From positions 161,636,001 through 161,700,000 of the forward strand of contig NC_086097.1 in NCBI RefSeq assembly GCF_963921235.1: a DNA stretch of 64,000 nt. Reading direction: 5' to 3'. Below are positions 3,201-57,602 of the stretch, one piece after another. The notes under the pieces are model-generated. The model had not been told where the DNA came from, did no database searches, and worked only from the letters and a program-made list of their open reading frames with translations. The stretch's first letter is position 1. Each line of letters opens with the position of its first letter. A program made the translations under genes and the position numbers. This stretch comes from Mobula hypostoma. Its lineage: Eukaryota.

Positions 3201-4375
3201 AAAAGGCTTTTGACAAGGTCCCACATAGGAGATTATTGTGCAAACTTAAAGCACACGGAATTGGAGGTAAGGTATTGATGTGGATAGAAAATTGGTTGGC
3301 AGACAGGAAGCAAAGAGTGGGAATAAACGGGACCTTTTCAGAATGGCAGGCAGCGACTAGTGGGGTACTGCAAGGCTCAGTGCTGGGACCCCAGTTGTTT
3401 ACAATATATATTAACGACTTAGATGAGGGAATTAAATGCAGCATCTCCAAGTTTGCGGATGACACGAAGCTGGGCGGCAGTGTTAGCTGTGAGGAGGATG
3501 CAGGGTGACTTGGATAGGTTAGGTGAGTGGGCAAATTCATGGCAGATGCAATTTAATGTGGAGAAATGTGAGGTTATCCACTTTGGTGGCAAGAACAGGA
3601 AAACAGGTTATTATCTGAATGGTGGCCAATTAGGAAAAGGGGAGGTGCAACAAGACGTGGGTGTCATTATACACCAGTCATTGAAAGTGGGCATGCAGGT
3701 ACAGCAGGTAGTGAAAAAGGCGAATGGTATGCTGACATTCATAACAAGAGGATTCGAATACAGGAGCAGGGAGGTACTACTGTAGTTGTACAAGGCCTTG
3801 GTGAGACCACACCTGGAGTATTGTGTGCAGTTTTGGTCCCCTAATCTGAGGAAAGACATCCTTGCCATAGAGGGAGTACAAAGAAGGTTCACCAGATTGA
3901 TTCCTGGGATGGCAGGACTTTCATATGATGAAAGACTGGATCGACTAGGCTTATACTCGTTGGAATTTAGGAGATTGAGTGGGTATCTTATTGAAACGTA
4001 TAAAATCCTAAAGGGATTGGACAGGCTAGATGCAGGAAGATTGCTCCCGATGTTGGGGAAGTCCAGAACGAGGGGTCACAGTTTGAAGATAAAGGGGAAG
4101 CCTTTTAGGACCGAGATTAGGAAAAACTTCTTCACACAGAGAGTGGTGAATCTGTGGAATTCTCTGCCACAGGAAACAGTTGAGGCCAGTTCATTGGCTA
4201 TATATAAGAGGGAGTTAGATATGGCCCTTGTGGCTAAAGGGATCAGGGGGTATGGAGGGAAGGCAGGTACAGGGTTCTGAGTTGGATGATCAGCCATGAT
4301 CGTACTGAATGGCGGTGCAGGCTCGAAGGGCCGAATGGCATACTCCTGCACCTATTTTCTATGTTTCTGTTTCTA
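215..4375 (+). mobile_element. Near full-length CR1 LINE, inactivated (5'UTR, ORF1 Zn-finger/esterase, ORF2 APE+RT)
   Basis: ORF1 from ATG 452 has CxxC..CxxC, a stop at 590-592 and SGNH esterase motifs (GDSIVR, VVVHIGTND, DGLHLN). ORF2 has APE motifs (GITETW, GDFN, SDH) and RT motifs ([12 protein letters not shown]) broken by frameshifts and an internal deletion near 2727. CR1-type 3' end with TTTCTATG-like tail. Confidence 0.95.
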
Positions 4376-9269: not shown

Positions 9270-10505
9270 AAGAACTTATGAAGGTTCAATCGTTAGGTAT
9301 TAATATTGAAGCAGTAAAATGGATTCAACAGTGGCTGGATGGGAGATGCCAGAGAGTAGTGGTGGATAACTGTCTGTCAGGTTGGAGGTCGGTGACTAAT
9401 GGTGTGCATCAGGGATCTTTACTGGGTCCAGTGTTGTTTGTCATATACATTAATGATCTGGATGATGGGGTGGTAAATTGGATGAGTAAGTATGCAGATG
9501 ATATTAAGATAGGTGGCGTTATGGATAATGAAGTAGGTTTTCAAAGCTTGCAGAGAGATTTAGGCCAGTTAGAAGAGTAGGCTGAAAGACGGCAGACACG
9601 AGGAAATCTGCATATGCTAGAATTTCAAGCAACTTCCTAGAGATGCTGCCTGGCCTGCTGCGTTCACCAGCAACTTTTATGAAAGATGGCAGATAGAGTT
9701 TAATGCTGATAAATGTGAGATGCTACATTTTGTAAGACTAATCAAAATAGGACATACATGGTAAATGGTAGGGCATTGAGGAATGCAGTAGAACAGTGTG
9801 ATCGAGGAATAATGGTACATAGTTCCCTGAAGGTGGAATCTTTTGTGGATAGGGTGGTGAACAAAGCTTTTGGTATGCTGGCCTTTATAAACCAGAGCAC
9901 TGAGTATAGGAGTTGGGATGTAATGTTAAAATTGGACAAGGCATTGGTGAGGCCAAATTTGGAGTATTGTGTACAGTTCTGGTCATTGAAATATAGGAAA
10001 GATGTGAACAAAGTAGAGAGAGTACAGAGGAGATTTACCAGAATGTCACCTGGGTTCCAGCACCTAAGTTACAGAGAAAGGTTGAACAAGTTAGCTCTTT
10101 ATTCTTTGGAGCGTAGAAGGTTGAGAGGGGTCTTGATGGAGGTATTTAAAATTATGAGGGGGATAGATAGAGTTGACGTGGATAGGCTTTTTCCATTGAG
10201 AGTGGGGGAGATTCAAACAAGGGGACATAAGTTGAGAGTTAAGGGGCAAAAGTTTAGGGGTAACATGAGGGGGAACTTCTTTACTCAGAGAGTGGCAGCT
10301 GTGTGGAACGAGTTTCCAGCAAAAGTGGTAGAGGCAGGTTCAATTTTGTCATTTAAAAAAAAATTGGAAAGGTACATGGACAGGAAAGGAAGGGAGGGTT
10401 ATGGGCTGAGTGCAGGTAGATGGGACTAGGTGAGAGTAAGCGTTCGGCACGGACTAGAAGGGCCGAGATGGCCTGTTTCTGTGCTGTAATTGTTATATGG
10501 TTATA
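9270..10505 (+). mobile_element. 5'-truncated CR1 LINE (RT half)
   Basis: ORFs 9278-9580 (QGSLLGP, YADD) and 9758-10429 (LVRPNLEYCVQFW); CR1 3' tail. Confidence 0.92.
9597..9679. mobile_element. 83-bp Penelope-like terminal remnant with internal inversion
   Basis: 14-bp TSD tgaaagaYggcaga at 9583-9596 and 9680-9693; the two halves match the PLE terminus in opposite orientations. Confidence 0.8.
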
Positions 10506-11294: not shown

Positions 11295-12368
11295 AATGAC
11301 ATTGGCTTGGGTCAGCAGTCAGCAACAGTCTGAGGAAATAGTGAGTGTGGTGGTTTATCCATGGAAATGCGAACAAAATTTAAACAAAATTCACTCCCCA
11401 TGAGGCTGCTCCTTCATTCACTAAGATCATGCCTGATCTAATCTTGGTCTGGACACCATTTCAAATGTGCCTCATTCTATGCTTTTAATATATTCAGTGA
11501 TTCTGCTTCCCCATCCCCAATTATTGTAGCAGCACTCCTAAACTGGTACCATCAGCATAAACAGCATCATTCATTTTCTTTAAAATAAGGTTCATGTTTC
11601 CCACACTCACTTTAATACTGGTTAGACCAGAGCCTCATTTCTAGCATTCCCTTTAAACTCACTGGGACTTTAAACATAACTATTATTCTACTGCATAGCC
11701 CAAAACTGGCAAATGAAAATTGTGTTCGGGTTTTATTAGGCATAACATTAAATAGTCTCGAAAGTCTGCTATTGTTCACCACGAAATACCAAATGGTGCT
11801 GGACTATTTGTTACTGCAGAAAGGATTCTAAAATACAAAGCCAACATTTTGTGAAAAAAAAAATCAATAACAGGATATAACCTGACAAAAATTACAATGC
11901 ATATTACATGATTTAAGGTCCCCCTTTACACTCTTTTCGCAATCATTAACGTCATAAGGATATGTGCTTTTTCCAAATACCGTAATATGGTGAAGGAAAA
12001 GGCGAAAGGGACAAGGAAGGAACCTAATAATGCCGTTCTTTGAGTTTACATTGAATTATCTTGGAATACAGCTGCAGACTGAGAACAGAAAGTGGGAGGA
12101 TGACTTCCTAAATAGTTAAATTCTCAACATTAAAAAAAATGAGCTCTATGCATTGTTGCCCAAACCATGGCTCGCTTGTTATAAAATAGCATAGCTTAAC
12201 AAAAAAAATTATAAATCCAAAGGACTTTACCAGTTTTGATTTCGACAGCCTATTTCTTGGAGTTTATTGATCGATTTAGATTTTAATATATTAACAAGTT
12301 CTTTGAAAGCCTGTAATTTTGTTATTCTTATTTGCTTCTAGAAATAAATACCTCTGATCTAGTGAAAA

Positions 12369-13428
12369 CGCATCTCCCCCATTTCACGTACATCTGCTCT
12401 CACTCCATCCTCCCGCCACCCCACTAGGAATAGGGTTCCCCTGGTCCTCACCTACCACCCCACCAGCCTCCGGGTCCAACATATTATTCCGTAACTTCCG
12501 CCACCTCCAACAGGATCCCACCACTAAGCACATCTTTCCCTCCCCCCCCCCTGCATTCCGCAGAGATCGTTCCCTACGCGACTCCCTTGTCCATTCGTCC
12601 CCCCCATCCCTCCCCACTGATCTCCCTCCTGGCACTTATCCATGTAAGCGGAACAAGTGCTACACATGCCCTTACACTTCCTCCGTTACCACCATTCAGG
12701 GCCCCAAACAGTCCTTCCAGGTGAGGCAACACTTCACCTGAGAGTCGACTGGGGTGATAAACTGCGTCCGGTGCTCCCGATGTGGCCTTCTATATATCGG
12801 CGAGACCCGACGCAGACTGGGAGATCGTTTTGCTGAACGCTCTGTGCGCCAGAGAAAGTAGGATCTCCCAGTGGCCACACATTTTAATTCCACATCCCAT
12901 TCCGATATGTCTATCCACGGCCTCCTCTACTGTAAAGATGAAGCCACACTCAGGTTGGAGGAACAACACCTTATATTCCGTCTGGGTAGCCTCCAACCTG
13001 ATGGCATGAACATCGACTTCTCTAACTTCTGTTAAGGCCCCACCTCCCCCTCGTACCCCATCTGTTACTTATTTTTATGCACACATTCTTTCTCTCACTC
13101 TCCTTTTTCTCCCTCTGTCCCTCTGAATATACCTCTTGCCCATCCTCTGGGTCCCCCCACCTTGTCTTTCTACCCGGACCTCCTGCCCCATGATCCTCTC
13201 GTATCCCCTTTTGCCTATCACCTGTCCGGCTCTTGGTTCTATCCCTCCCCCTCCTGTCTTCTCCTATCATTTTGCATCTCCCCCTCCCCCTCCAGCTTTC
13301 AAATCCCTTACTCACTCTTCCTTCAGTTAGTCCTGACGAAGGGTCTCGGCCTGAAACGTCGACTGCACCTCTTCCTGCAGGTGTTGCTTGGCCTGCTGCA
13401 TTCACCAGCAACTTTGATGTGTGTTGTT
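12369..13428 (+). mobile_element. Penelope-like element 3' part (GIY-YIG endonuclease + terminal repeat)
   Basis: Translates FT..STGVINCVRCSRCGLLYIGETRRRLGDRFAE...RLEEQHLIFRLGSLQPDGMN; 9-bp TSD tagtgaaaa at 12360-12368 and 13429-13437. Confidence 0.9.
13328..13365 (+). ncRNA. Minimal type I hammerhead ribozyme (PLE-associated)
   Basis: TAGTC-CTGACGA-AGGGTCTCGGCCT-GAAAC-GTC-GACTG: stem I TAGTC/GACTG, core CUGANGA and GAAA, short stem II, palindromic ACGT stem III, GUC cleavage triplet. Confidence 0.8.
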
Positions 13429-13934
13429 TAGTGAAAATGACGGTCATGTTTGTCAAATAACCCTGCTGTACCCCACTTAGTGACTTATCTACACAAACCA
13501 AGAGCAATCTAAATTGGAAAAAAATAGCAAACAAAAACAGGATGAAGTACTTACGATGCTTAACAGCTTTGAATCGCCATGTATAGCATCCAAAGGCGAC
13601 TTCGAAAAATTTGCACAAAACTTATCTGCTGGGGCGATTGAAGATGACAGGATTCCACTCTAGCTCCGGGGATCCAGAAGTGGGTGTCAGACAAGCGGAC
13701 TCTGCCACGCATGGAGCAGCTGGTGACTACAGACGGCTTGGCACAGCAGAGTTCTCTCTTCACCCACTCCGCTGACAAAGGAAACAAAAACTTTCATCGA
13801 CTATCACCTGACAACGTTCTCCGAATCTTTGTTCAAAAGATCGATCGCTTTAGGGTTTTTTTGTCCCTACTCTGTCAACACACAAAACTATTTTTATTTC
13901 CCCATTCCAGTTTGATTTCCTTCTAGCTGGAATT

Positions 13935-14180
13935 TGCCATCTCCGGCGCAGGTTCGCGCGCGCCGCACAACCATACAGGTGACGTCGGGCACGAGCGCGC
14001 CGCAAAACCACGCAAGTGACGTTGAGCACGAACGCACCGCCCCAAGGCGTGATTTAGGGCGCGCGACTGCACGGCCCATGGGGTGATGTTGAGCGCATGT
14101 GCATCACACTGTGACGTTCTTAACGCGGCAGCCGTTGGAGTGAGGGTGGAGGTGGAGGTGGAGACGGGCACGAACCAATG
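13935..14180. promoter_or_regulatory. CpG island, probable (bidirectional) promoter with CRE/ATF motifs
   Basis: Dense CpG in an otherwise CpG-depleted window; TGACGT motifs near 13980, 14017 and 14112; YY1-like GCCATCT near 13937; splice-donor-like sites on both sides (minus ~13554, plus ~14186). Confidence 0.7.
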
Positions 14181-14480
14181 TTCAGGTAGATTGGATTATA
14201 TTGCAGATGGTTAACCAGAACCTTCGTTAGGTTTTGTTGAAACCGAAAAGCACTGAACGTACAGGAATAAAAACAGTAAATGCTGAAAACTGTTAGTCGG
14301 TTATACAACATTAGCATGGAGAGAGATTCCCGTGGTCCATTATAAATGTGCATTAGTTGCTGTACTCGGTATTCTTGTGTTTCAACACTTTTTCTCTCTC
14401 CCAAGAACGTCAAGAAAAACGGGGAAGTGAGTCAAGTTTTGAACTTGCGCGACCATGTAACATAATAATGGCTGATCCAA

Positions 14481-14623
14481 CATAAAAGTTAGTCCTGACG
14501 AAGGGTCTCGGCCTGAAACGTCGACTGCACCTCTTCCTACAGATGCTGCCTGGCCTGCTGCGTTCACCAGCAACTTTTGATGTGTGTTCCTTGAATTTCC
14601 AGCATCTGCAGGTTGTTTGCATA
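14481..14623 (+). mobile_element. Short Penelope-like terminal-repeat insertion
   Basis: Matches 13326-13428; TSD gctgatccaa at 14471-14480 and 14624-14633. Confidence 0.85.
14490..14527 (+). ncRNA. Minimal type I hammerhead ribozyme (PLE-associated)
   Basis: Sequence identical to 13328-13365. Confidence 0.8.
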
Positions 14624-15047
14624 GCTGATCCAATCTTGATTTCAAAATCACTATCCTACTCAGTTCCCATGAGACACGAGGAACTGCAGGTGCTGGAATT
14701 TAGAGCAGTCCTAACAGAAAGTCTGAGCCCAAAATGTCATTTGTCTCTGCCTTCACAAATGCTGCTTGACCTGCTGAGTTATTATAGCAGATTGTTTTTT
14801 TTTGCTGCTGACTTCAAAATCAGTTCACTTTTGTCTTGTCCTCATGTCTGTCAGTCTTTTGCTTTAATATTTTAAATGACTACTTCTTTAGTTTATTGGG
14901 TTCGAAATTTCGAAGAAGTCTGGATAGAAGAAATACTTAATGTCTGTTTAACACTGTTCCCCTTAGTTATAATTACAGGCCCTTGGTCTGATAAGACTAT
15001 GGTCTGCATCTAGCTTGTCCCAGTTTCCTATATTCAAACCATATCCT

Positions 15048-15175
15048 TGATGTCCTGCCGAAGGGTCTAGGCCTGAAACGTCGACTGTACTTTTTTCCAT
15101 AGATGCTGCCTGGCTTGCTGAGTTCCTCCAGCATTTTGTGTGTGTTGTGTGGATTTCCAGCATCTACAAATTTTA
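15048..15175 (+). mobile_element. Penelope-like terminal remnant with altered hammerhead core (CTGCCGA)
   Basis: gtcctgccgaagggtctaggcctgaaacgtcgactg followed by agatgctgcctggc. Confidence 0.75.
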
Positions 15176-16789
15176 TCTTTGTCCCTGATTCTTGATGTTT
15201 CTGTATGAAACTGTTCTCTTGTTATCCATGCTGCCATGCCCTCTCTGAAGATTGTAAATTTTAGTTGATTGTTTCTCTGCCTTCTAAACACTAATGGGTA
15301 TACAGTATATTTAACCTGCTTGTTTTCTTCATACATTCACCCTTCATCTCAGAAATCAGCCTAGTTAACCCTTCCTACATTAATCAAATCCAAATATATA
15401 CTTCCATTAATATTACAACTAAACATGACTACGACACACTTGATTTCCCCCTAATCCAATGCATTCATATGCATTGTAAGTGGTTGATGTCCTTCAGTGA
15501 TTGCCTATGGTACCCTACCTAATTATTCAATGTCAATCCATAAATCATCAATTTATGCTGCCTCTATATTCTGTTAGCCAATCCCCTAATCATATCAGAG
15601 TATTACTCCCAACCACATGCTATCTCCGCTTGTACTGTAACCTTTTATGAGGCACTTTTTGACTGCCTCTGGAAATTAAAATACACTACATCTTCAGATT
15701 CCCACTATCAACATTGTTTGTTATGTGCTGAAGGAACTTGAGCAAATTTGTCAAATATAATTTTGTTTCAATATATTGTCATATGCTTTTCCCAGTATCC
15801 TTTATCTACCTGCTTTGGTAATGGAATCAAGCAATTTCTTAATGAACAATTTTAGGCTTCCTGGTCTCCAGTTCTGTGATCCTGTCCCCTTTTTTGAAAA
15901 GGAAAAAAAAAAAAATATATATATATATATATATAATTTCAGAATTCCTTAAGCTCCTTTAAGGCCCAAGAATAGAGGCCATAATGTCCAAAGAACAGAC
16001 TATAGGGAACATAAGCATCGAACTTAATCAATTTCCCTTAAGCCATAATAGACCCATAGGCCTGCGATAAAAAATTGCTTTCTAAATAGCATTATCCACT
16101 TGTAAGATCAAAAACAGTTATATGTAAACTTCCAACTATATTTCTTTGTTTAACTTCTGGTCATAAGGGAGTTAAGTCTTCAGTTGTTAAAATGGAAATG
16201 GAAAGCAGTAATCAGCTTAAAGTTTAAAGCACTTACTTTAGAACAGCTTTGAAAATAGCTCAGTCCATAGAACACATTATGTCTAAGGAAACTCAGTGCA
16301 CTGCTTTATTAGTGCTCAAAGTTCAATATAAGACAATGGGTTGTTTAATTTGGGTTGTTTCCAATAGGCAAGCTAACTCTTAAGTTCCTTAGTTCAAAGA
16401 AGGCTGCAAAAGGAATTAGCTTTTGTAGCGTTAACTGTGAACTGTAAACATTAATCTGTGTAAAGATACTTTTAGACCTTTTGTGTTAAAAGGACGTCTG
16501 AGGAAATAGATCTGTGTGAAGTCACCCAAGTGGGCGAAAAACAGTATCAATGTAGAGTGCAGTTCAGGCTTATTAGGAATGGGATAAGGAACATCAAGAA
16601 AAAGATATGGAAGAAACACTGGGCAAACTGGAATTCATTGCACCAGCTTCAGTTGCTGAGTTGAATGATTCATTGGTATGCATCATGGTATGTATTTTTA
16701 GTTTATAGGAATTGTACCTGTGTTTTGGAAATCCTTTGAGTTTAAGAAATCATTTGTGCTTTGTGTTTTGGGAATTGTTTATAATTTGA

Positions 16790-17860
16790 AAATGTTTAAG
16801 ATAAAAAATCTTCTGAGTCTTAAATGTGTTTTAAGAGTGTTGTTTGGATTTAAACATATACCACTAAATAAATAAACTTTAATTGCTGGTGGTGTCTTCT
16901 TCTTGCTAGGGAGGGGGACCCACTTCTCCAATAGTAGGTATTGGCAGCTAAATTTGCTATGAAGGATAAACAGTTAAGTAAACTAGTTTTTGAAGCTTGG
17001 GTAGATACCGTATAATCTCCCTTCAGTGAGACTACTCATGGCAATTTATATCCTATAGGGCTTAAGGTCTTCATTTGAGTTCACAACTTCTTAGACAGCA
17101 AATACAATACCAACACAATCAGCACCCGACATGGTCACCTTTTAACAAAAGTATTATTTTAGGAAGAATTAGTTCAACTCAGAGAGCTCGCGTTAAGTGC
17201 TACAGCACCCCTACCTAGCACTATAGAATGGTCGACATCCTGGTTCCCAGCAGTTGCACAGGCAAATGCTGGTTGATATTATGAATATGTTAATTATGTA
17301 GCAGAAATATGAGATAATACCCCAACTGCTCCTCCAATTGAAGGAGATGAATACTTTTTTCTTCAAATCAGAAACTGTAAAGATGATGTGATAGAACACA
17401 GCAGTAATTCCTTCCAGACACACGAGGTAGTGCCCACAGCAGTAAACCCTAAAGGTACTAATGAAGCCTGGAGAACAGATGCTCGAGAACATGCATTAGA
17501 ATTACAAAATTAAAACATTGGCGAATTTTAACTGTAATTTGGAAATGTTTAAAATGTGTTTTAAGAGTGTTGTTTGAATTTAAATGTTTATCACTAAATA
17601 AATAAACTATGTTTTAAACTACTTTGTTAACTGGAAGTATCTTCTTGGTAGGAAGGAAGGACCCACCACTCAAATAGTAGGCACTAGCAGCTAAGCTCAC
17701 AGTGAAGAATAAACAAGGAAGTAAACTAGTTTTTGAAGATTGGGTAGATACAGTGTAATCTCCCTTTAGTGAGAGTACTCGTGGCTATTTATATCCAATA
17801 GGGCTTAAGGACATCATTTGAGTTAAGAACTTCATGGTCATCAAACCCAGTACCATCACA
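16790..17860 (+). mobile_element. Old LTR-like direct repeat pair with short internal segment (putative ERV/LTR relic)
   Basis: Diverged ~330-bp direct repeats at ~16790-17117 and ~17530-17860, each with AATAAA and ending in CACA; degenerate PBS-like sequence after the first copy. Confidence 0.5.
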
Positions 17861-18514: not shown

Positions 18515-21500
18515 TAATAAACTCTTCAATCAGGTGGTGGTTCTCTTGGTGGCCAAACAAGAGTTTAATAGAAAAACAAAATACATTTAAGTCAGACAGC
18601 CTCTTGAACAATGTTTCTTTCAATTTTATATCAATTACAATTCAGCAAAACATGCTGAGCTGTCTCTGGAGTACCACAGTCACATAATCCAGTAGGATGT
18701 TTTCCTATTATCTTTAAATAATAGTTTAGCCCACAATGCCCCAACCCAAGTCTTTGTTAATTTCACCTTATCTCTATGATTTAAAAAGTAACAGTCTGAG
18801 ACCTTTTTAACTAGTGGGTGACTAGAAAAGAAATGCCTTCCCTTTAAAAACACAAACACGAGGAAATCTGCAGATGCTGGAATTTCAAGCAACACACATA
18901 AAAATTGCTGGGGAACGTAGCAGGCCAGGCAGCATCTATAGGAAGTAGTACTTGCCCTGACGAAGGGTCTCGGCCCGAAACGTCGACTGTACCTCTTCCT
19001 ATAGATGCTGCCTGGCCTGCTGCATTCACCAGTAATTTTTATGTGTGATGCCTTTCCTTTAATTCATTTTTCCAATCCTCCTGCCACTTATTCTCTGTAC
19101 ACTTTTTTATCCTACTTCTCAATTCTGCTATGCCTGGGGGTACTCTAATTTCTACTTGCCTGCTCTGTAAGGAAGACTTTGCAGTGCCATCCACAATTTC
19201 ATTTCCCTCCACCCCAGCATGCCCAGGTATCCATGTAAATCTGACTTCACAACCCATCTTCCTTACTCTAAACAAAACTAAGAGAATCTCAATAACTATG
19301 TCAGGACGAGCTTTTGATTTATTCCCCTTTATAGCATCTAAGGTCTACGGCAGCAGCAGAATCCGAACAGATGATAACCCTGCATGGTCGAGAATCTTCC
19401 ATCCACCATAAGGCCCAGAGGACTGCTAATAATTCTGTTGCAAAGACAGAAACACCATCTGAAACCCGGTGACCAATCTTAACTCCAAGTTGAGACACGT
19501 ACATCCCAAATCCTGCCTTACTGCTCTCTGGGTCCACGAGCCATCAGTGAAAAACTTCAGATAAAATCCCCATTTATTATTTAAATATTCATTTATGATC
19601 GAAGCTGTTGAAATTGCTCTGCTTCCTTGAGGCTGAAAAAGGAGGAATAGGTCTACTTCTAGTTCTGGCAAAAGCCAAAAAGGAATGGGTGGCAAGCAAA
19701 TTTGGTCAGCTATGTCTTCCTCAATCAGTTACAATTTCACAGCCCAGTTATTAACCAAATCTAAAAATGAATATTTTTTAATTTTACTTTGGCTCTCCAA
19801 CTTCCCCTGCAAAAGACATCTTGATGGACAGCTGTGATTGAAGCCATTTAGTTTTGCCCAATACTGCAGGCCCAACTGAACTAGTCTTAAATGTAGAGGC
19901 ACTTCTCCCATCTCCACACATAATGCAGGGACTGATGTTGTTCTAAAAGCTCCACAACAGAGTCTAAGTGCTTTGGCCTGCACAGTGTCTAATTTTTCAA
20001 GCACTGCCACAGCAGCGGAACCACAAGCAATACAACCATAATCAATAACTGATCTAATCATAGCTAGATATATTAAGTACATAGTTTCCCGCCCTGCTCC
20101 CCAGTCACATCCAGCAATACTTTTCATAACATTTAAAACTTTCTCACACTTTCCAATTGTTTTATCTATATGAACCCTCCAAGTAAGTCTTTCATCAAAA
20201 CAGGCACCTAAAAACTTGAATACCTCAACTTTTTCTGATGGAGAATCATATAGACACAATTCACAATCAGGAATCTTTCTTCGAAAGCCAAAAATTATAT
20301 ATTTGGACTTAGAAGCAGAAATCCTGAAACCCCATTTATTTTCCCAGTTCTTAACTGACCTTAAAGCCTTTCGTACCTGCTTTAATTTATACTTGACGTT
20401 TCTTTCTGTTTTCCAGATTGCATCATCGTCTGCAAACAACGATTTGCCAAATCCTGTTCCTACCTGATCAAAGATATCATTTATCATGACATTAAAAAGA
20501 ACCGGACTAATGACGCTTCCTTGAGGGGTACCATTACCTATTTTAACTGACTTGGAGCTTGTTCCGCCTATTCTTACTTGAATTGTCCTTTCCTTGAGAA
20601 AATCTTTGATCCAATTAAACATTCTACCTCTAATTCCCGCATCATAGAGTTTAATTAATAAACCATCCTTCCATAGTAAGTCATATGCTGTTTCAATATC
20701 TAGAAATGCACTTACCATTACTTCTCTAATTTGAAATGTTTTTTTAATATCGTGATCTAAAAGGGCAAGAAATTCCATTGTTGATCTTCCAGTTCTAAAA
20801 CCATTTTGATAGGCAGCAAAATGTCCCTTCTTTTCTAAAAAGTAAAGTCTGTTGGTGACCATTTGTTGCATAGTTTTACAAAGCCCTGATATTAAAGCTA
20901 TAGGCCGATACAAACCGGGACTAGACGCGTCTTTACCTGGCTTTAAAACTGGAACTACCACCGCATGCTTCCATTCTACTGGTAATTTTCCTTCTTTCCA
21001 CACAATTAAACAAAGCTAGCATTTCTATTAATACAGAGTCATCTAAATGCTTAAGCAATTCATAACACAGTCCATCCCTACCAGGAGAAGTACTTGAACC
21101 TGATTGGACATCTTCCTGAAGGGAGAAAAACAAATTTATGGAGCTATTATCATCCAAACTCCTGTCCAGTTTCCAACTTTCCTTTAACATAATTTCCTTT
21201 CTCAAATCACCTGTTTCTCCAGAACTGTGTAATGCTCGGAACACCTCTACAAACATATCAGCCTTTTACTTATTAGTTACAGCTTCAATATCTCCTTCCA
21301 GCAAAGCTGGGATAGATGGTTTTCTATATATCCCTGACATTCTGTGAATGATTGTCCATAGCTGCTTCTTTTTTTTAGATTATGAGGACACTCAGTTCTC
21401 ATTTATTGTCATTTAGAAATGCATGCATTAAAAATGGTACGATGTTCCTCCAGAAAGTTATTACAGGTTTCTTAGGGGCAAGCGTTCCACAAAATCTTCT

Positions 21501-32200: not shown

Positions 32201-33305
32201 TTTGCTGGCCTGCCACTACTACTTTTTGCTTCTACCCTCATTTTACACCCCTCTGTCTCTCTGCACTTGTTCCCATCCCTCTTTTGTGAACTAACCTCCT
32301 CTCTCCTAGTCTCTTTAATTTGATTCCCACCCCCCAACCATTCTAGTTTAAAGTCACCTCAGTAGCCCTCACAAATCTCCCCGCCAGGATATTGATTCCC
32401 CTAGGATTCAAGTGTAACCAGTCCTTTTTGTAGAGGTCACACCTGCGCCAAAAGAGGTCCCAATGATCCAAAAACTTGAATCCCTGCCCTCTGGTCCAAT
32501 CCCTCACCCACGCATTCATCCTCCATCTCATTGCATTCCTACTCTCACTGTCGCGTGGCACAGGCAGTAATCCCGAGGTTACTACCTTTGCGGTCCTTTT
32601 TCTCAACTCCCTTCCTAACTCCCTATATTCTCCTTTCAGGACCTCTTCCCTTTTCCTACCTATGTCATTGGTACCTATATGTACCACGACCTCTGGCTCC
32701 TCACCCTCCCACTTCAGGATATCTTGGACGCGATCAGAAATATCCCGGACCCTGGCACCAGGGAGGCAAACTACCATCCGGGTCTCCGGACTGCGTCCAC
32801 AGAATCGCCTATCTGACCCCCTTACTATCAAGTCCCCTATTACAACTGCCTTCCTCTTCCTTTCCCTACCCTTCTGAGCTACAGGGCTGGACTCTGTGCC
32901 GGAGGCACGGCCACTGTTACTTCCCCCAGGTAAGCTGACCCCCCCCCCCCCCAACAGTACTCAAACAGGAGTACCTATTGTCAAGGGGCACAGCCACCGG
33001 GGTATTCTCTATTACCTGACTCTTCCCCTTCCCCCACTAACTGTGACCCACTTGTCTGCCTCCCGTGGCCCTGGTGTGACCACCTGCCTGTAACTCCTCT
33101 CTATCAACTCCTCACTCTCCCTGACCGGACGAAGGTCATCGATCTGCAGCTCCAGTTCCCTAACGCGGTCCTTTAGGAGCTGCATCTCGGCGCACATGCC
33201 GCAGATGTGGACGTCCGGGAGGCTTGGAGACTCCAGGGCCTCCCACATCCGGCACCGAGAACAACAAGCTGCCCTCACTGTCATACTGCCCCTCTCCTCA
33301 AGTAA
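29232..33305 (-). mobile_element. CR1 LINE, same family as 215-4375, lacking most of the 5'UTR
   Basis: ORFs 33012-33461 (part), 32343-32954, 31276-32337, 30629-31354 and downstream RT pieces are collinear with the first copy. Confidence 0.95.
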
Positions 33306-33799
33306 CAATATCAGTTCTTCCTCCATCCTTCGTGTTAATTCCTCATTACAACTGTTGAGGAATGGATTTATTATCCAATCTGGAATTTGCATTGTGAAAA
33401 GATTCTGAAATCTCTCTGACATGTCTTTATCTCCGGTGGGCACAATATACTTGAAGATCATAATCTAGTATACTTTCCAACTCGAATAGACTCAGAAATT
33501 GGAAAAAGTCATGGCGGCCAATGTTGCAGTTAAATAGGGTTAACTTGGACGGAAATGTGGAGATGACTGGTTTGACTTTAATAAGATTTATGTAACTTCT
33601 TTGAAATTGAAGATTGATTTAATTATACGTTGCAAATAATTATGACAAGGACTATCATTCCTAATATTTATGAATTTATTACGGAAAGAAACAGTTGAGT
33701 CTTCAAAGAATTTTATCAAAAGATGCAGAAAAGCTTCTCAGACAGATTCCTTTTCAGAGCCTGACTTCTGTGTGCAACAGCAAATGTTCAAACTGTTCA

Positions 33800-36088
33800 C
33801 AAACAACAGAAAATCTGCAGATACTGGAAATCCAAGCAAAACAAATGCTGGAGGAACTCATGCAGCATCTATTGAAAAAAGTACAGTTAAACGTTTCAGG
33901 CAAAGATCCTTCAGCGGGAGAAAAGAAGATGAGCTTTAAAGGGTGTGGGTAGGGGAAGGAGAAACACAAGATGATAGGAAAACCAGAAGAGGGAGCGGTG
34001 AAGTAGAGAGCTGGGAAGTTGATTGGAGAAAGAGATACAGGGCTGGAGAAGGAGGAATCTAATAGAGGACAGAAGGCCATGGAAGAAAGAAAAGAGGGGA
34101 GGAGCACCAGAGGGAGGTGATGGGCAGGCAAAGAGATGAGACTGAGAGAAGGAAAAGGGGAGGGCAGGGGGAGGTATTACCGGAAGTTCGAGAAATCAAT
34201 GTTCATGCCATCGGATTGGATGCTACCCAAATGGAATAAATAAGGTGTTGTTCTTGCAACCTAAGTGTGGCCTCATCGTGACAGTAGAGGAGGCCATGAT
34301 AGACATATGGGAATGGGAAGTGGAATTAAAATGGGTGGCCACTGGGAGATCCCACTTTTTCTGGTAGATGGACCATAGGTGCTCGGCAAAGTGGTCTTTC
34401 AATCTACATTGGGTCTCACCAATAATGAGGAGGCCACACCGGACACATTACAGGACCTCAACATACTCACAGGTGAAGTGTCGCCTCAGCTGGAAGGACT
34501 GTTTTGGGCCCGGAATGGTAGTAAGGGAGGAGGTGTAAGAGCAGGTGTAGCACTTGTTCCGTTTGCAAGGATGTGCCAGGAGGGATGAATGGATAAGGGA
34601 GTCACACGTAGGGAACAATCCCTGTGGAAAGCAGAAAGTGGGGGGCGGTGGGGCCGGAGGGAAAGACGTGCTTGGTAGTGGGATCCCATTGGAGATGACG
34701 GAAGTTGCAGAGAATTGTGCTAGACATGGAGGCTGGTGGGGTGGTAGGTGAGGAAAAGAGGAACCCTATCCCTGGTAGGGTGGCGGGATGATGGGGTGAG
34801 AGTAGACGTGTGTGAAATCAAAGAGATGCAGTTGAGGGCAGCATTGATGGTAGAGGAAGGGAAACCCCTTTCTTAGAAGAAGAAGGACATTTCCTTTGTT
34901 CTGGAATGCAAAGCCTCATCCTGAGAGCAGATGCGGTGGAGACAGAGGAATTGAGAGAAGGAGATTGTGTTTTTACAAGTAACAGGATGGGAAGAGGTAT
35001 AGTCCAGGTAGCTGTGAGAGTCCGTGGGTTTATAATAGATATCAGGTGGTGACGAGAGGGCATACAGTAGTGAGATATGCCAACTAGTGGAATGGTGCCA
35101 CAGCAACAACCTGGCACTCAACGTCAGTAAGATGAAAGAGCTGATTGTGGACTTCAGGAAGGGTAAGACAAAGGAACACATAACAATTCTGATAGAGGGA
35201 TCAAAAGTGGAGAGAGTGAGCAGCTTCAAGTTCCTGAGTGTCAAGATCTTTGAGGATCTAACCTGGTCCCAACATTTTGATGTAGTCATAAAGAAGGCAA
35301 GACAGCGGCCATACTTTATTAGGAGTTTGAAATGATGGCATGTCAACAAATACACTCAAAAACTCAAAAATAGTTGTACTGTGGAGAGCATTCTGACAGG
35401 CTGCATCACTGTCTGGTATGGAAGGGCTACTTCACAGGACCAAAAGAAGCTGCAGAAGGTTGTAAATGTAGTCAGCTCCATCTTGGGCACTAGCCTACAA
35501 AGTACCCAGGACATCTTTAGGGAGCGGGGTCTTAGAAAAGCAGCGTCCATTATTAAAGACCTCCAGCACCCAGGGCATGCCCTTTTCTCACTGTTACCAT
35601 CAGGTAGGAGATACAGAAGCCTGAAGGCACACACTCAGCGATTCAGGAACAGCTTCTTCCCCTCTGCCATCGGATTCCTGAATGGACTTTGAAGCTTTGG
35701 ACACTATCTCACTTTTTTTTTGATATACAGTTTTTCTGTTTTTGCACATTTTTAATAATCTATTCAATATATGTAATTGATTTACTTGTTTATTATTATA
35801 ATGTTTTTATTTTTTTTCTCTCTCTCTGCTAGATTATGTATTGCATTGAACTGCCGCTGCTAAGTTAACAAATTTCACATCACATGCCAGTGATAATAAA
35901 CCTGATTCTGATTCAGAGTTGAGGTCTGAAGATGCGAGTTCAGTGGGGCAGGAACAAGCTGAAATAATGCGTCTACCTGGACAAGTGGGTTTGTGGATCT
36001 TGGACAGGAACTAGAAACGGGAGGTGCGGGATGCAGGGACTATGTAGTTGGTGGCAGTGGATGGGAGATCCCCAGAGGTTGATGATAG
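33800..36088 (-). mobile_element. Penelope-like element (RT C-part + GIY-YIG), degraded
   Basis: DIYYKPTDSHSYLDYTSSHP...SQFL.L.RICS; 15-bp TSD tgttcaaaYtgttca at 33785-33799 and 36089-36103. Confidence 0.88.
35046..35913 (+). mobile_element. Rex1/Babar 3' fragment nested in the Penelope-like element
   Basis: WCHSNNLALNVSK.KELIVDFRK; ESILTGCITVWYG; LLPSGRRYRS; (ctgatt)n tail. Confidence 0.88.
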
Positions 36089-39545: not shown

Positions 39546-39619
39546 TTATGCACAACCTTACTCAGAAATTCCCTTACTGTTGGTTGAATCAATGGTATGA
39601 GACTTTCCTGATTTAGCAA

Positions 39620-40783
39620 TAGAAACATAGAAACATAGAAAATAGGTGCAGGAGTAGGCCATTCGGCCCTTCGAGCCTGCACCACCATTTATTATCATGG
39701 CTGATCATCCAACTCAGAACCCCGCCCCAGCCTTCCCTCCATACCCCCTGACCCCTGTAGCCACAAGAGCCATATCTAACTCCCTCTTAAACATAGCCAA
39801 TGAACTGGCCTCAACAGTTTGCTGTGGCAGAAAATTCCACAGATTCACCACTCTCTGTGTGAAGAAGTTTTTCCTAATCTCGGTCCTAAAAGGCTTCCCC
39901 TCTATCCTCAAACTGTGACCCCTCATTCTGGACCTCCCCAACATCGGGAACAATCTTCCTGCATCTAGCCTGTCCAATCTCTTTAGGATCTTATACGTTT
40001 CAATCAGATCCCCCCTCAATCTTCTAAATTCCAACGAGTACAAGCCCAGTTCATCCAGTCTTTCTTCATATGAAAGTCCTGCCATCCCAGGAATCAATCT
40101 GGTGAACCTTCTTTGTACTCCTTCTATGGCAAAGATGTCTTTCCTCAGATTAGGGGACCAAAACTGCACACAATACTCCAGGTGTGGTCTCACCAAGGCC
40201 TTGTACAACTGCAGTAGTACCTCCCTGCTCCTGTACTCGAATCCTCTCGCTATAAATGCCAGCATACCATTCGCCTTTTTCACCGCCTGCTGTACCTGTA
40301 TGCCCACTTTCAATGACTGGTGTATAATGACACCCAGGTATCGTTGCACCTCCCCTTTTCCTAATCGGCCACCATTCAGATAATAATCTGTTTTCCTATT
40401 TTTGCCACCAAAGTGGCTAACTTCACATTTATCCACATTAAATTGCATCTGCCATGAGTTTGCCCACTCACCCAACCTATCCAAGTCACCCTGCATCCTC
40501 TTAGCATCCTCCTCACTGCTAACACTGCCACCCAGCTTTGTGTCATCCGCAAACTTGGAGATGCTGCATTTAATTCCCTCATCCAAGTCATTAATATATA
40601 TTGTAAACAACTGGGGTCCCAGCACTGAGCCTTGCGGTACCCCACTAGTCACCGCCTGCCATTCTGAAAAGGTCCCGTTTATTGCCACTCTTTGCTTCCT
40701 GTCTGCTAACCAATTCTCCACCCACACCAATACCTTACCCCCAATACCGTGTGCTTATAAGTTTGCACACTAATCTCCTGTGT
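39620..40783 (-). mobile_element. Young 5'-truncated CR1 LINE, sister of 36664-39545
   Basis: 338-aa open RT C-terminal frame with shared diagnostic residues (DIFAIEG, YEERLDEL, LPQQTVE). Confidence 0.95.
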
Positions 40784-47457: not shown

Positions 47458-49178
47458 GACTGATACAGTCTTTTATCAAAATATTGCAGAAGTCTGGAGA
47501 AACTTTTTAATCCAGTGCTTTCAGAGATGTTTACAAATTTAGAGTGTTCAGCAGGGTCCTGGCCAGAAACATCAACTGTACTCTTTTTTTTCCCTAGAAG
47601 CTGCCTGGCCTGCTGAATTCCTCCAGCATTTTGTGTGCATTCCCACCTTTTACATCTGGATGACTACCAGTATCCACATGACTCAGCAGTGAAGAATAAA
47701 GGAATACACCCATTACAGTTTACTTTGGATGGTTTCCTGCCAGGATGACAGAATCACACCCTGAGAGAATCTGTTTTACATCACTGTACTTATGGATATT
47801 CTTAAAATAGCAAACAGTTTTGACGAAATCCCTGATTTGTTAGCTTTTGGATTGATCCTATAACATCCAAAACTTGTCCCTTTAGTCAGTATCTTTAATC
47901 TTAAGTGATTCAATAATGGACAACCATTTTTTCACATCATTGAAAGAACATCCTAAATCTGTAATAATCTCTGAGGGCACTGGATTAAAAAGTTCCTCTA
48001 GACTTCTGCAATATTTTGATAAAATACTATATCAATCATACATGGTTTATTTAAACTCAGCAACTTAGGCTTAGCCCTTTTGCCTGCAACACTATCATCT
48101 TTCACTTTTGTATATGGTTGTATTTCTCTGTTCTTTGCCCTCTCCCAGGAGCTCAATCATTTCCATCTGTTCAATGTTTAGATTAAGTGAATTAAATCAC
48201 TAGTATTCCTCCAACTCACAACATCCCCTGGTTGATATCATTTCTCTTTTATCTTACTTAATTATGTGCCTTGTGATATCCTCAAACAGCAATATCCTAT
48301 CCTGTTTGCCAAGGGAATGTCCTTATATTATTTTGTATTGATGTTTATAAACAAGGCAAGGAACTAGTCCTTCATTGAAGGCAAACAAAATTCAATTAAA
48401 AGTGATGAATTGTGCAATATCATATCAAACTACATTATAGATAAAGTTCTCAAAGCTTTATATACAATCAATATGTACTATAAATTCCAATCTAATACTC
48501 TTTGGAAATAAATTATTGAAACTACTTTCATCACTAACAATGAATTTCAGATCATAGCTGCTCTCCACATGAAAAAAACAACTTTTTCTCCTGTTTTCCT
48601 TCATGCCAACAACTTTATATCTCTGTCCAAAAGTAGATTCTGAAAATCTGAAATAAAACATTGGAAATACTGGGCAGATCAAGCAGTATCTGTTGAAATA
48701 TTAAGTGTTAATGTTTCAGGTCAGAAATGAAACAAGTATTGAGTTGCTGAGAAAGGAGAAGGGCCACAGAGTACAAAATAGGATAGAGACCAGGAGATAT
48801 TGAAAGGCATAATTTATAGTGGTGTTGGTTGAACAGAGTGGTAAAGATATGTAGATTGTGTAATCAGGTGGAGACAAATGAAATCTGAATAACCAAAAAA
48901 GGAGGTTAAAAAAACATTGGGTGCTGGGAATGCAACTTAATAACTGAAATAACTGTCTGAAAATGTTAAATTCATTATTGAATCCTTGAGGCTGCAGTGA
49001 GTCATCAGACTCCAGAAAATTCAGAGTAGAAATGGCTGATGAATTAAAGAGATAGATAACTGGAAGCTTAGGGTCACCCCAGTGAACTTCCCAGAGCTGT
49101 AAACTTAGTGCAGAGGGCAGCATATCTTGAGCACCAAAAGCAGTAAACTGAATTGGAAGAAGTAGAAATGAATCATTG

Positions 49179-50056
49179 GGCCAGGCAGCATGTCTGGGAA
49201 AAGGTACAGTCGACGTTTCAGGCCGAGACCCTTCTTCAGGACTGACTGAAGGAAGAGTTAGTAAGAGATTTGAAAGTGGGAGGGGGAGGGGGAGATCCAA
49301 AATGATAGGGGAAGACAGGAGGGGGAGGGATGGAGCCAAGAGCTGGACAGGTGATTGGCAAAGGGGATATGAGAGGATCATGGGACAGGAGTCCGGGGAG
49401 AAGGAAAAAGGGGGGGGGGGAACCCAGAGGATGGGCAAGGGGTGTAGTCAGAGGGACAGAGGGAGAAAAAGGAGAGAGTGAGAGAAAGAATGTGCGTATA
49501 TAAATAAATAATGGATATGGTACGAGGGGGAGGTGGGGCATTAGCGGAAGTTAGAGAAGTCAATGTTCATGCCATCAGGTTGGAGGCTACCCAGACGGAA
49601 TATAAGGTGTTGTTCCTCCAACCTGTGTGTGGCTTCATCTTTACAGTAGAGGAGGCCATGGATAGACATGTCAGAATGGGAATGGGATGTGGAATTAAAA
49701 TGTGTGGCCACTGGGAGATCCTGCTTTCTCTGGCGGACAGAGCGTAGGTGTTCAGCAAAACGGTCTCCCAGTCTGGCATCGGGTCTCACCAATATATAGA
49801 AGGCCACATTGGGAGCACCGGACGCAGTATATCACCCCAGCCGACTCACAGGTGTAAGTGTTGCCTCACCTGGAAGGACTGTCTGGGGCCCTGAATGGTG
49901 GTAAGGGAGGAAGTGTAAGGGCATGTGTGGCACTGGGTCTCGGCCTGAAACGTTGACTGTACCTCTTCCTAGAGATGCTGCCTGGCCTGCTGCGTTCACC
50001 AGCAACTTTGATGTGTGTTGCTTGAATTTCCAGCATCTGCAGAATTCCTCGTTTGC
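49179..50056 (-). mobile_element. Penelope-like element with inverted terminal arm, apparently nested in an older PLE relic (~48630-50225)
   Basis: GIY-YIG C-part (RLGDRFAEHLRS...RLEEQHLIFRLG); perfect 14-bp TSD gaaatgaatcattg at 49165-49178 and 50057-50070. Confidence 0.9.
49207..49244 (-). ncRNA. Minimal type I hammerhead ribozyme
   Basis: CAGTC-CTGAAGA-AGGGTCTCGGCCT-GAAAC-GTC-GACTG; perfect stem I, variation at the free N7 position. Confidence 0.78.
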
Positions 50057-50679: not shown

Positions 50680-51292
50680 TTCAGGCAACACACACAAAAA
50701 ATGCTGGTGAATGCAGCAGACCAGGCAGCATCTATGGGAAGTACAGTCAACGTTTCAGGCTGAGACCCTTCGTCAGGACTAACTGAAAGAAGAGATAGTA
50801 AGAGATTTGAAAGTGGGAGGAGGAGGGGGAGATCCAAAATGATAGGAGAAGACATGAGGGGGCGGGATGGAGCGGAAGAGATGGAAAGTTGATTGGCAAA
50901 AGGCTGAAGGGAGAGGATCATGGGATGGGAAGCCTTGGAGAAAGGGGGTGGGGAACCCAGAGGATGGAGTTATAGTGAGAGGGACAGAGGGAGAAGAGAG
51001 CGAGAGAGAAGGTGGGGATAATAAATAAATAAATAAATAAACAAATAAGGGATGGGGTGGAAGGGGATTAAGGGAAGTTAGAGAAGTCAATATTCATTTC
51101 ATCAGTTTGGAGGCTACCCAGACTGAATACAAGGTGTTGTTCCTCCAACCTGAGTGTGGCTTCATCTCGACAGCAGAGGAGGCCGTGGATAGACATATCA
51201 GAATGGGAATGGGACGTGGAATTAAAATGTGTGGTCACTGGGCGATCCTGCTTTCTCTGGCGGACAGAGCGTACGTAGGTGTTCACCGAAAC
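50680..51292 (-). mobile_element. Penelope-like element 3' part with hammerhead at 50744-50781 (GUU site)
   Basis: RLEEQHLVFSLGSLQ; TAGTC-CTGACGA-AGGGTCTCAGCCT-GAAAC-GTT-GACTG. Confidence 0.87.
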
Positions 51293-55760: not shown

Positions 55761-55962
55761 AAGAAATTCATTCAGCTGTTAATGCAAGTGTATATAGGGC
55801 ATTTCCTTTAAATTTGTACAAAACAACATTGTTGTACACATATCTGTTGTTGATACGCAATTTCTGTTCAACAATATTAGTATATTTATTTATGCTCATT
55901 GGTTGAGAACATAAAAAAAAGACCGTGTCGTCAATTACCAGCCCTACATGTCCTGTATCTGA

Positions 55963-56990
55963 TCACAAACAAGAGAAAATCTGCAGATGCTGGAAATCCA
56001 AGCAACACACACAAAATGCTGGAGGAACTCAGCAGGCCAGACAATATCTATGGAAAAGAATACAGTCAATGTTTCGGGTCAAGACCCCTCAGCAGGACTG
56101 GAGAAAAAAAGATGAGGTGTACATTTAAAAGGGGAGGGGAGGAGAGGGGAGGGAGAAACACATGGTGATAGGTGAAACCAGGAAGGGGAGGGGTGAAGTA
56201 AAGAGCTGGGAAGTTGATTGGAGAAAACGATACACGGCTGGAGAAGGGGAAAATCTAATAGGAGAGGAAGAACAGTAGAGGAGGCCATGGTTTGACATAT
56301 CAGAATGGGAATGGGAAGTAGAATAAAAATAAGTGGCCACTGGAAGATCCCGCTTCTTCTGGCAGATGGAGCATAGGTGCTCGGAAAGCGATCTCTCAAT
56401 CTGCATTGGGTCTCACCAACAAACAAGAGGCCACATTGGGAGCACCAAACACAGTACATAACCCCAAAAGACTCCCAGGTATCGCCTCACGTAGAAGGAC
56501 TATTTGGGCCCCTGAATGGTGGTGAAGGAAGAGGTGCAGGGACGGGTAACAACACCTTATATTCCTTCTGGGCAGCCTCCAACCTGACGCCATGAACATC
56601 AATTTCTCTAAACCTCCTGTAATGCCCCCCATACCATTCCCCATCCCCTTTTCCCCTTCTCATCTTATCTCCTTGCCTGCCCATCACCTCCCTCTGGTGT
56701 TCCTACCCCTTTTTCTTTCTTCCATGTCTTTCTGTCCTCTCCTATTAGAATCCCCCTTTTCTTTCACCAATCAACTTCCTAGCTCTTTACTTCACCCCTC
56801 CACTTCCCTGTTTCACCTATCATCTCGTGTTTCTCTCTTCTCCCTCCCCCCTCACATTTTAAATCTACTACTCATCTTTTTTTCTCGAATCCTGCTGAAG
56901 GGTCTCAGCCCAAAACGTTGACCATACTCTTTTTCCAGAGATGCTGCCTGGCCTGTTGAGTTCCTCCAGCATTTTGTGTTTGCTGCTTGG
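55963..56990. mobile_element. Penelope-like element arranged as an inverted pair (minus arm to ~56545, plus arm after)
   Basis: YCVWCSQCGLLFVGETQCRL; both ends carry the terminal repeat with a CTGCTGA-variant hammerhead core. Confidence 0.85.
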
Positions 56991-57602
56991 TTGTCCTGTA
57001 TCTGTGTGGCTTGTAAAAAGTAGTTAAGAGTCAGATAACTTATTCTGGGTCTGAAATCACACGTAGGCCAGACCAGGTATGAACAGGCATGAAACAGATG
57101 GTCTGTAATGATAATCGGATCGTTCAATATAAACCATGATGGACACAAACCTTTTATTCCAGATTAATTATCCATTACAAACCCTATTTATTTTATGTAA
57201 TTGTTTAATCTACAGGAACAGATTGTAACTATGAAGTCAGAAATTCAATCTCCAATCTTGATCGGGTTTCATCTGAGCTCTCCCAGCAGTTAACTTGAAT
57301 ATGCAACATGTTCTGGCTTTCACATAAGACCAAATTGTTTCTTTTCTTTGGATATAGTCCAGTATCAAATATCCAGTTAATATACAGTACTAGACTAAAT
57401 ACAAAAAGACAGATTCTATTAAACTCACTAAATATTTTTGTGCATCACTTGGGATCACTTTTAGACTTAATATATTTCAGTATGACACTGGGACAAAATT
57501 TAGTTTGAATTTATTAATAGCTGGGATTCTGAATAAGGCCATTTATTAACCTGCAATAGATGAAACTGGTTCTTCATTGTTGTTCTCTATCCTATTAAAT
57601 TT

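What the first reader, a model, noticed from the sequence alone, without database searches (positions are those of the whole stretch)
13328..13365. Penelope-like termini carry a minimal hammerhead ribozyme, in many copies
The terminal repeat reads stem I (YAGTC) - CTGANGA - stem II (GGGT-CTCG-GCCY) - GAAAC - GTH - stem I' (GACTG). Intact copies are at 13328, 14490, 49207(-) and 50744(-). Partial or variant copies are at 15051, 18957, 49935, 56063(-) and 56890. Variation in intact copies is tolerated: N7 C/A, cleavage GUC/GUU, U-G versus C-G in stem I, and G/A in the stem II loop. Stem III is only the palindrome ACGT, as in the minimal PLE hammerheads reported to need dimerisation. PLE hammerheads are established; whether this family has been described I cannot tell.
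Basis: partly seen in the sequence, partly recalled or inferred. Interest (0 to 1): 0.75.

Follow-up and report, generated by a model that had tools for sequence, protein, structure and literature searches.

The report
Minimal hammerheads in ray Penelope retrotransposon
The flagged 38 bases are a real, tiny self-cutting-RNA motif at the end of an abundant Penelope-type jumping gene in a ray-like fish genome; this kind of motif is already known, it would likely cut only slowly and in pairs, and the copies here were made from RNA that was likely uncut at this site.

Summary
Observation confirmed. Four intact minimal type I hammerheads lie at 13328+, 14490+, 49244- and 50781- (0 such sites in 300 shuffles), among 12 copies in 64 kb. 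They end 5'-truncated or fold-back insertions (11-15 bp target duplications) of an endonuclease-bearing Penelope-like element with a Neptune/Nematis-type linker; the nearest proteins are from rays. No cartilaginous fish is among that paper's 56 aligned examples, so this is a new member of a known kind. Corrections: no two-sided covariation in the window, and 4 of 6 'tolerated' changes are at CpG. Extras: four 'variant' copies form a second subfamily with a shared A6C core change; no arm starts or ends at the cut site; tail ends fall in two classes; the 15 bases upstream are predicted to sequester the core. Cleavage is untested and genome-wide variation was not measured. The scan has reported this family, the A6C lineage and the copy-end patterns before, in this and other genomes.

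The parts
13328..13365 (+). Intact minimal type I hammerhead (subfamily A); predicted cut after C17 = 13360
12371..13428 (+). 5'-truncated PLE insertion: linker with CX4CX2C, GIY-YIG-type endonuclease end with in-frame stops (ORF stop 13033-13035), pyrimidine-rich UTR, hammerhead, short tail; target duplication 12360-12370 / 13429-13439
13313..13325 (+). Upstream pyrimidine stretch predicted to pair with the core 5' strand and block the hammerhead fold
   Evidence: folding prediction only
14481..14620 (+). 140-bp insertion: 10-base likely inverted tail remnant, intact hammerhead 14490-14527, long tail; target duplication 14468-14480 / 14621-14633
15052..15187 (+). Short subfamily B insertion starting inside stem I; A6C core; long tail; 11-bp target duplication
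18848..19047 (.). Fold-back insertion: long-tailed arm without hammerhead (-) and arm from 18956 (+) with canonical core but truncated stem I; 15-bp target duplication
49179..50056 (.). Fold-back insertion: main copy 49179-49934 (-) with intact hammerhead 49207-49244, and inverted stump 49935-50056 (+) starting in stem II; 14-bp target duplication
50680..51290 (-). 5'-truncated PLE copy with intact hammerhead 50744-50781 (GUU cut site); no target duplication found
55962..56991 (.). Fold-back subfamily B insertion with two opposite, decayed A6C hammerheads (56063-56100 -, 56887-56924 +); 13-bp target duplication
33794..35043 (-). Longest PLE remnant (reaches the region after the RT core); subfamily B, decayed A6C hammerhead at 33885-33922
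9597..9679 (.). Tail-only fold-back insertion without hammerhead; 14-bp target duplication
47553..47643 (+). Decayed subfamily B-like stump starting in stem II
14706..14743 (+). Strongly decayed hammerhead-like copy of an older related element

Best explanation
The motif is a minimal type I hammerhead carried in the terminal repeat of an endonuclease-bearing Penelope-like retrotransposon of a ray-like fish; in the element's tandem source copy two such motifs would likely pair through their ACGU palindromes and cut each other slowly, while the solo copies in this window are likely inert passengers copied from RNA that was not cut at this site. Shown: motif, position 3' of the ORF on the sense strand, independent insertion units with target duplications, arms that run through the cut site. 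Inferred: a single motif has no stem III loop, so it would need a partner; in the double form each core cuts the partner strand after C17; cutting is probably slow and helped by the element's protein; reverse transcription starts inside the RNA at two sites 50-105 bases 3' of the motif, primed by the two staggered DNA ends, which gives single copies and fold-backs with one long and one short tail.
For: Descriptor hits 4 versus 0 in 300 shuffles. Fit to the consensus CUGANGAH-G..C-GAAA-palindrome-UH of PMC4209133 Fig. S3. ORF end 94% identical to a Mobula hypostoma protein; 8 of 11 hits carry ray or skate names; 5 of 8 scanned hits match GIY-YIG at E 5e-4 to 8e-3, below Pfam's cut-off; the Atlas places relative P0004 with HTH_animal/RVT_1/GIY-YIG clusters at 0.96-0.97. 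Target duplications of 11-15 bp for 7 of 11 units. Tail ends of 14 arms: 6 at +51 to +68, 7 at +87 to +104, 1 at +28; 4 of 4 fold-backs have one long and one shorter arm; 0 of 14 arms start or end at the cut site, as for the tail and internal RT starts in PMC8557442 and PMC11167929. Intact copies are cross-compatible for a double hammerhead: 5 of 5 stem I pairs both ways, 4 of 4 stem III pairs. Subfamily A core: 0 of 60 cells changed against 24 of 322 in the tail. Published min-HHRs: no cleavage as monomer, low as dimer (PMC4209133); protein-assisted in the anole element (PMC11167929).
Against: No cleavage test and no RNA-end data: the runs laid were contigs, and their RNA label is a guess. 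No two-sided covariation. The rest of the motif changes in only 6 of 151 cells, so an unchanged core is weak support. No direct tandem pLTR-ORF-pLTR is in the window. Nearest-neighbour energies do not favour the double hammerhead (-11.5 versus -22.0 kcal/mol for two monomers of 13328), although such models omit core contacts. With N7=C the monomer is predicted to mispair GACG with CGUY. A subfamily with A6C also spread.
Confidence: 0.65

Rival explanations
1. The hammerhead is now a passenger: cleavage is not needed for spread in this lineage, and the sequence is kept because it lies between the RNA start and the RT start sites or is bound by the element's protein.
For: 4 of 4 subfamily B copies that cover position 6 have C, 5 of 5 subfamily A copies have A. 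A6C gives kobs under 0.1/min (PMC3088659, passage) and cripples Mg2+ cleavage (PMC7151607, results). Core mutants did not affect insertion in vitro and no RNA-seq reads ended at the cut site in the anole element (PMC11167929). 0 of 14 arms end at the cut site.
Against: The least diverged subfamily (A) has a perfect core, 0 of 60 cells changed. Subfamily B keeps the other 10 core positions, both stems and the palindrome in its majority sequence. The four B copies share descent and count as one event.
Confidence: 0.2
2. Cleavage is switched by the RNA's 5' context: the pyrimidine stretch just upstream clamps the core in the 3' repeat, while an RNA that starts (or is spliced) at the front edge of stem I has a free core; in the double form that free core cuts only the partner, or nothing until protein refolds it.
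For: With 15-20 upstream bases the predicted stem II probability falls from 0.97 to 0.01 (13328), 0.70 to 0.00 (49244), 0.97 to 0.03 (50781); 3%, 1.3% and 4.3% of 300 upstream shuffles do as much. Three short arms start within -3 to +5 of stem I; 44 and 20 contigs have loose ends before 13329/13330. An AG after a pyrimidine tract sits just before stem I, where the D. virilis intron ends (PMC4209133).
Against: The three copies are not independent; subfamily B copy 56100 shows no clamp at 20 bases; adding 20 downstream bases relieves it in 50781; a U-rich upstream flank is general in min-HHRs and any pyrimidine run pairs with GAAGGG. None of the 15 joints shown (of 215) is a GT..AG skip ending at stem I, and the majority of subfamily A lacks GT at the stop-codon site. 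Loose ends there also arise from other subfamilies' different UTRs.
Confidence: 0.1
3. Neighbouring solo copies act as double hammerheads in host transcripts (50781 with 49244; 14490 cutting 15050).
For: The four intact motifs form two same-strand pairs 1162 and 1537 bases apart (0.0017 under random placement, a post hoc test), each next to a CpG island, and are cross-compatible.
Against: Each copy is a separate insertion; PLEs tend to insert near each other (PMC6765202, passage); a CpG island lies between 13328 and 14490; no host gene was identified (0 host-gene domains in 205 frames); both members of the 50781/49244 pair carry the predicted clamp.
Confidence: 0.04
4. The match is chance.
For: The bare core pattern also hits 5 unrelated sites in the window; the motif is not unusually stable; Rfam has no match.
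Against: The full descriptor gives 0 in 300 shuffles, and the motif sits where PLE hammerheads are reported, with the extra base and the palindrome.
Confidence: 0.01

Closest known systems
[quoted passage not shown]
   Same: Type I; CUGANGA plus one unpaired base; GAAA-C-G-U-H with ACGU palindrome; 5-bp stem I; U-rich upstream flank; 3' of the ORF in 5'-truncated copies; opposite-strand neighbours in fold-backs.
   Different: No cartilaginous fish among the 56 aligned examples; stem II is short (4 bp) and closes with G-U in all four intact copies; one subfamily has A6C, not mentioned in the parts read.
Poseidon element of Anolis carolinensis, Frangieh et al. 2024, PMC11167929 (read: parts 1-2 of 4)
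   Same: Hammerhead in the pLTR; copy ends at two sites 3' of it (optional tail); no ends at the cut site.
   Different: Other clade: the element here has the CX2-5CxxC linker absent from Penelope/Poseidon; whether the ORF starts inside the hammerhead could not be tested.
Neptune and Nematis clades of EN+ PLEs, Craig et al. 2021, PMC8557442 (read: passages)
   Same: C-terminal GIY-YIG with two cysteines inside the motif, linker zinc-finger-like motif, inverted 5'-truncated arm, one-sided 30-40 bp tail, target duplications.
   Different: No RT tree was built, so Neptune versus Nematis is not settled; no full-length copy in the window.
Non-LTR retrozymes, Li et al. 2026, bioRxiv 10.64898/2026.07.22.740005 (read: parts 1-3 of 5; supplements not seen)
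   Same: Type I hammerheads related to PLE pLTRs; reported in the one chondrichthyan genome sampled.
   Different: Retrozymes are tandem arrays; the copies here are dispersed single or inverted insertions.
A6C hammerhead of phage Bcep176, PMC3088659 (passages) and PMC7151607 (part 1 of 4)
   Same: Same core change as subfamily B.
   Different: A single phage ribozyme, not an amplified minimal retroelement motif.

Membership tests
min-HHR of metazoan PLEs | Core C3 U4 G5 A6 N7 G8 A9, G12 A13 A14, A15.1-U16.1, H17 | tested here: met
   4 intact copies, plus 18952; subfamily B has C6 and does not meet it
min-HHR of metazoan PLEs | One unpaired base between A9 and 10.1 | tested here: met
   A in all intact copies; this register is 1.4 kcal/mol better than the alternative
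min-HHR of metazoan PLEs | G10.1 paired with 11.1 (mostly C; U in several published members) | tested here: met
   G-U in 4, G-C in 3 of 8 distinct copies; G-U members seen in Fig. S3
min-HHR of metazoan PLEs | No stem III loop; palindromic 15.1-16.1 | tested here: met
   ACGU
min-HHR of metazoan PLEs | Lies in the terminal repeat of a PLE, sense to the ORF | tested here: met
min-HHR of metazoan PLEs | Compensatory changes within the family | tested here: inconclusive
   0 two-sided changes in 8 distinct window copies; sample too small, genome-wide variation not measured
min-HHR of metazoan PLEs | Self-cleavage as a dimer | not testable with these tools
   pairing is possible on paper; needs a cleavage assay
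Rfam hammerhead families | Score at a family's gathering threshold | tested here: not met
   no hammerhead family at E up to 5 in the window or up to 10 in 13280-13420
EN+ Penelope-like elements | RT followed by C-terminal GIY-YIG endonuclease in one ORF | tested here: met
   window pieces align to residues 73-417 of P0001, which bears the YIDD motif and a GIY-YIG match; no RT core in the window
EN+ Penelope-like elements | Target duplication, inverted 5'-truncated arm, one-sided tail | tested here: met
EN+ Penelope-like elements | Partial tandem forming two direct pLTRs | tested here: inconclusive
   none in this window; no genome was available
Neptune/Nematis clades | CX2-5CxxC linker before the endonuclease | tested here: met
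   CX4CX2C in the window translation and in P0001, P0002
Neptune/Nematis clades | Placement by RT phylogeny | not tested
   no reference RT set at hand
Non-LTR retrozymes | Tandem units each with a hammerhead | tested here: not met
   separate insertions with their own target duplications

The most novel reading that the evidence does not exclude
In ray Penelope elements the hammerhead is a gated, largely dispensable module: the upstream pyrimidine tract clamps the core in the 3' repeat so the template keeps its tail, only an RNA that begins at the front edge of stem I exposes a core, and a sister lineage spread with a crippled A6C core. The two subfamilies would then be a natural pair for testing what PLE hammerheads are for.
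Probability: 0.15. Interest if true: 0.55.

Novelty: new member of a known kind. Interest (0 to 1): 0.22.

Why it matters
Little as a discovery: minimal hammerheads are reported from PLEs across animals, and this adds a ray family. The role of PLE hammerheads is still open (PMC8557442 says so; PMC11167929 found cleavage dispensable in vitro). This family offers two sister lineages, canonical and A6C, with many copy ends, which makes that question testable.

Tried and rejected
No genome is held for this window, so copy number and tandem source copies could not be examined. A family pattern found 0 matches in metagenome and prokaryote contigs. Rfam: no hammerhead match. Run X21 (raw DNA reads, another organism) laid 0 reads and is no test. 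A per-position table of the motif's variation across genomic copies was not obtained, which leaves covariation and the genome-wide share of A6C open. A protein search with a frame translated across an A6C copy found nothing. Intron from the stop codon to stem I: not supported by the 15 of 215 joints shown, and the donor-like GT is missing in most of subfamily A; not excluded. Host genes at the two CpG islands: 205 frames scanned, 1 hit (an RNase H fragment), none a host gene. The core-like site at 51382(-) folds as a long hairpin, has G at position 17 and no palindrome; rejected as a hammerhead. Literature: searches gave no paper that describes a shark or ray PLE hammerhead family; Lunse et al. 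2016 (PMC5785218) is not held and the supplements of the 2026 preprint were not seen, so either may list it. One search timed out and was rewritten.

Full report
Observation. The 38 bases at 13328-13365 parse as a type I hammerhead: stem I TAGTC, core CTGACGA, one unpaired A, stem II GGGT-CTCG-GCCT, GAA, the palindrome ACGT, C17 at 13360, and stem I' GACTG. A descriptor that needs the core, a stem II, U16.1-H17 and a stem I of 4 bp or more finds 4 sites in the window and 0 in 300 dinucleotide shuffles. The five partial copies are present too, and a covariance model built from 9 copies finds 12 at E<0.05, 9 of them by construction. Rfam has no hammerhead match at E up to 5 for the window or up to 10 for the 141 bases around the motif. 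The motif alone is no more stable than its shuffles, so the case rests on sequence pattern and position.

The host element. Long copies carry, 5' of the motif on the same strand, a broken ORF end. Five of 8 scanned hits match GIY-YIG weakly, below Pfam's cut-off; the Atlas places P0004 among HTH_animal/RVT_1/GIY-YIG clusters at 0.96-0.97. Window pieces align to residues 73-417 of P0001. The linker has CX4CX2C, the motif that marks Neptune and Nematis and is absent from Penelope/Poseidon (PMC8557442, passages). No RT tree was built. The family is abundant: 20 of 24 listed runs hold part of the stretch, and 14398, 9237 and 6591 contigs were laid from three runs (contigs, RNA label a guess, depth is not copy number).

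Insertion anatomy. Seven of 11 units examined have 11-15 bp target duplications, so each motif came in its own insertion. There is no direct tandem pLTR-ORF-pLTR in the window. Of 14 arms, 6 end 51-68 bases past the motif, 7 end 87-104 bases past it, and 1 ends at 28; two of these arms served as the alignment axis. All 4 fold-backs have one long and one shorter arm, and the 140-bp unit at 14481 begins with 10 bases that are the reverse complement of tail sequence. No arm starts or ends at the cut site. Short arms start at about -3 to +2, +3, +5, +14, +14, +44, +44 and +97 on the motif axis. This fits the one-sided 30-40 bp tail of PLEs (PMC8557442) and the two internal RT start sites of the anole Poseidon element (PMC11167929, parts 1-2 of 4). 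It follows that the RNA copied was not cut at its 3' hammerhead, or had been rejoined. I ran the boundary analysis after reading earlier scan notes that report such patterns.

Variation. Among 8 distinct copies no pair changes on both sides, and the structure does not beat the shuffles. In subfamily A, 0 of 60 core cells differ against 24 of 322 tail cells (P about 0.01), but only 6 of 151 other motif cells differ, and 4 of these 6 lie at CpG. Solo copies are not under selection after insertion, so this mostly reports the source sequence and its age. In one search none of the 40 variant rows shown (of 162) falls inside the motif, which says only that 13328 is the majority form. Genome-wide variation was not measured.

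A second subfamily. Tail sequence splits the copies in two. All 5 subfamily A copies that cover position 6 have A; all 4 subfamily B copies have C. A6C is reported to slow cleavage (PMC3088659, passage) and to cut Mg2+ activity sharply while keeping Mn2+ activity (PMC7151607, part 1 of 4). The four copies share descent, so this is one event: a source element with a weakened core still spread. I noticed this before looking at earlier notes; the scan had already reported it for this genome (e1-7808234) and another (e1-9834341).

Mechanism. With no stem III loop a single motif cannot close the core; ACGU lets two motifs form a 4-bp intermolecular stem III, and each core would then cut the partner after C17. 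Intact copies are compatible for this. Published min-HHRs do not cleave as monomers and cleave weakly as dimers (PMC4209133); the anole motif needs the element's protein and is not needed for insertion in vitro (PMC11167929). Folding predictions point the same way: the double form is not favoured, N7=C copies mispair the core, and 15-20 upstream bases sequester the core in three subfamily A copies, more than 96-99% of shuffled upstreams do. The clamp is absent at that range in B copy 56100 and is relieved by downstream bases in 50781, so it is a lead only. I commit to slow, dimer- and probably protein-dependent cleavage in tandem source copies, with solo copies inert (0.65). Dispensability (0.2), a 5'-context switch (0.1) and action in host transcripts (0.04) are the rivals.

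Comparison with what is known. The motif fits the consensus of Fig. S3 in PMC4209133, and none of its 56 rows is a cartilaginous fish (supplement file 1 unreadable). A 2026 preprint reports hammerhead tandem repeats in one chondrichthyan genome (10.64898/2026.07.22.740005, parts 1-3 of 5; supplements not seen). Lunse et al. 2016 is not held; I saw its title and a review's summary (PMC6765202, passages). Searches gave no description of this family. It works like, and meets the testable features of, a metazoan PLE min-HHR; it is not a member of an Rfam family by score and not a retrozyme array.

Verdict. Real, correctly read, and ordinary: a new member of a known kind, already seen many times by this scan. 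Interest 0.22. The most novel reading not excluded, a gated and largely dispensable ribozyme with a natural A6/C6 pair of lineages, has probability about 0.15 and would deserve about 0.55.

Noticed in passing
window 15050+, 56100-, 56887+, 33922-: Second subfamily, defined by its tail, with C at core position 6 in 4 of 4 copies (A in 5 of 5 of the other subfamily).
   Followed up: partly
window 13376 back to 13329, runs X11 and X12: Contigs join the base after the motif's flank back to stem I with 4 letters between (depth about 30): possibly a head-to-tail hammerhead repeat of about 52 bases somewhere in these genomes, the size of the smallest retrozyme units.
   Followed up: no
window 13801-14300 and 51201-51500: Two CpG islands, each next to a pair of intact same-strand hammerheads. 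The first looks like a two-way promoter (donor-like sites near 14188 + and 13553 -); genes not identified.
   Followed up: partly
window 13311-13326: Pyrimidine tract ending in AG just before stem I, like a 3' splice site; older copies read GTAAT across the ORF stop codon, and relative P0004 is annotated with further residues after that point.
   Followed up: partly
window 51330-51400 (-): GC-rich hairpin holding CTGACGA and GAAA just 5' of a PLE truncation point; not a valid hammerhead.
   Followed up: partly
window 593-4280, 19729-23055, 25773-28345, 30629-33464, 36761-40754, 54279-55127: Several LINE copies (endonuclease and RT domains; two with an SGNH/GDSL esterase ORF1), one with a 922-aa open frame at 36761-39529.
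   Followed up: no
window 58031-58099: Near-perfect inverted repeat with sub-threshold matches to miRNA hairpin models on both strands; probably a small transposon.
   Followed up: no
window 16820-17120 and 17550-17860: Two direct copies of a roughly 300-base sequence about 740 bases apart (seen, masked as repeat), with an RNase H fragment at 19054-19344 (-); possibly LTR-element remains.
   Followed up: no
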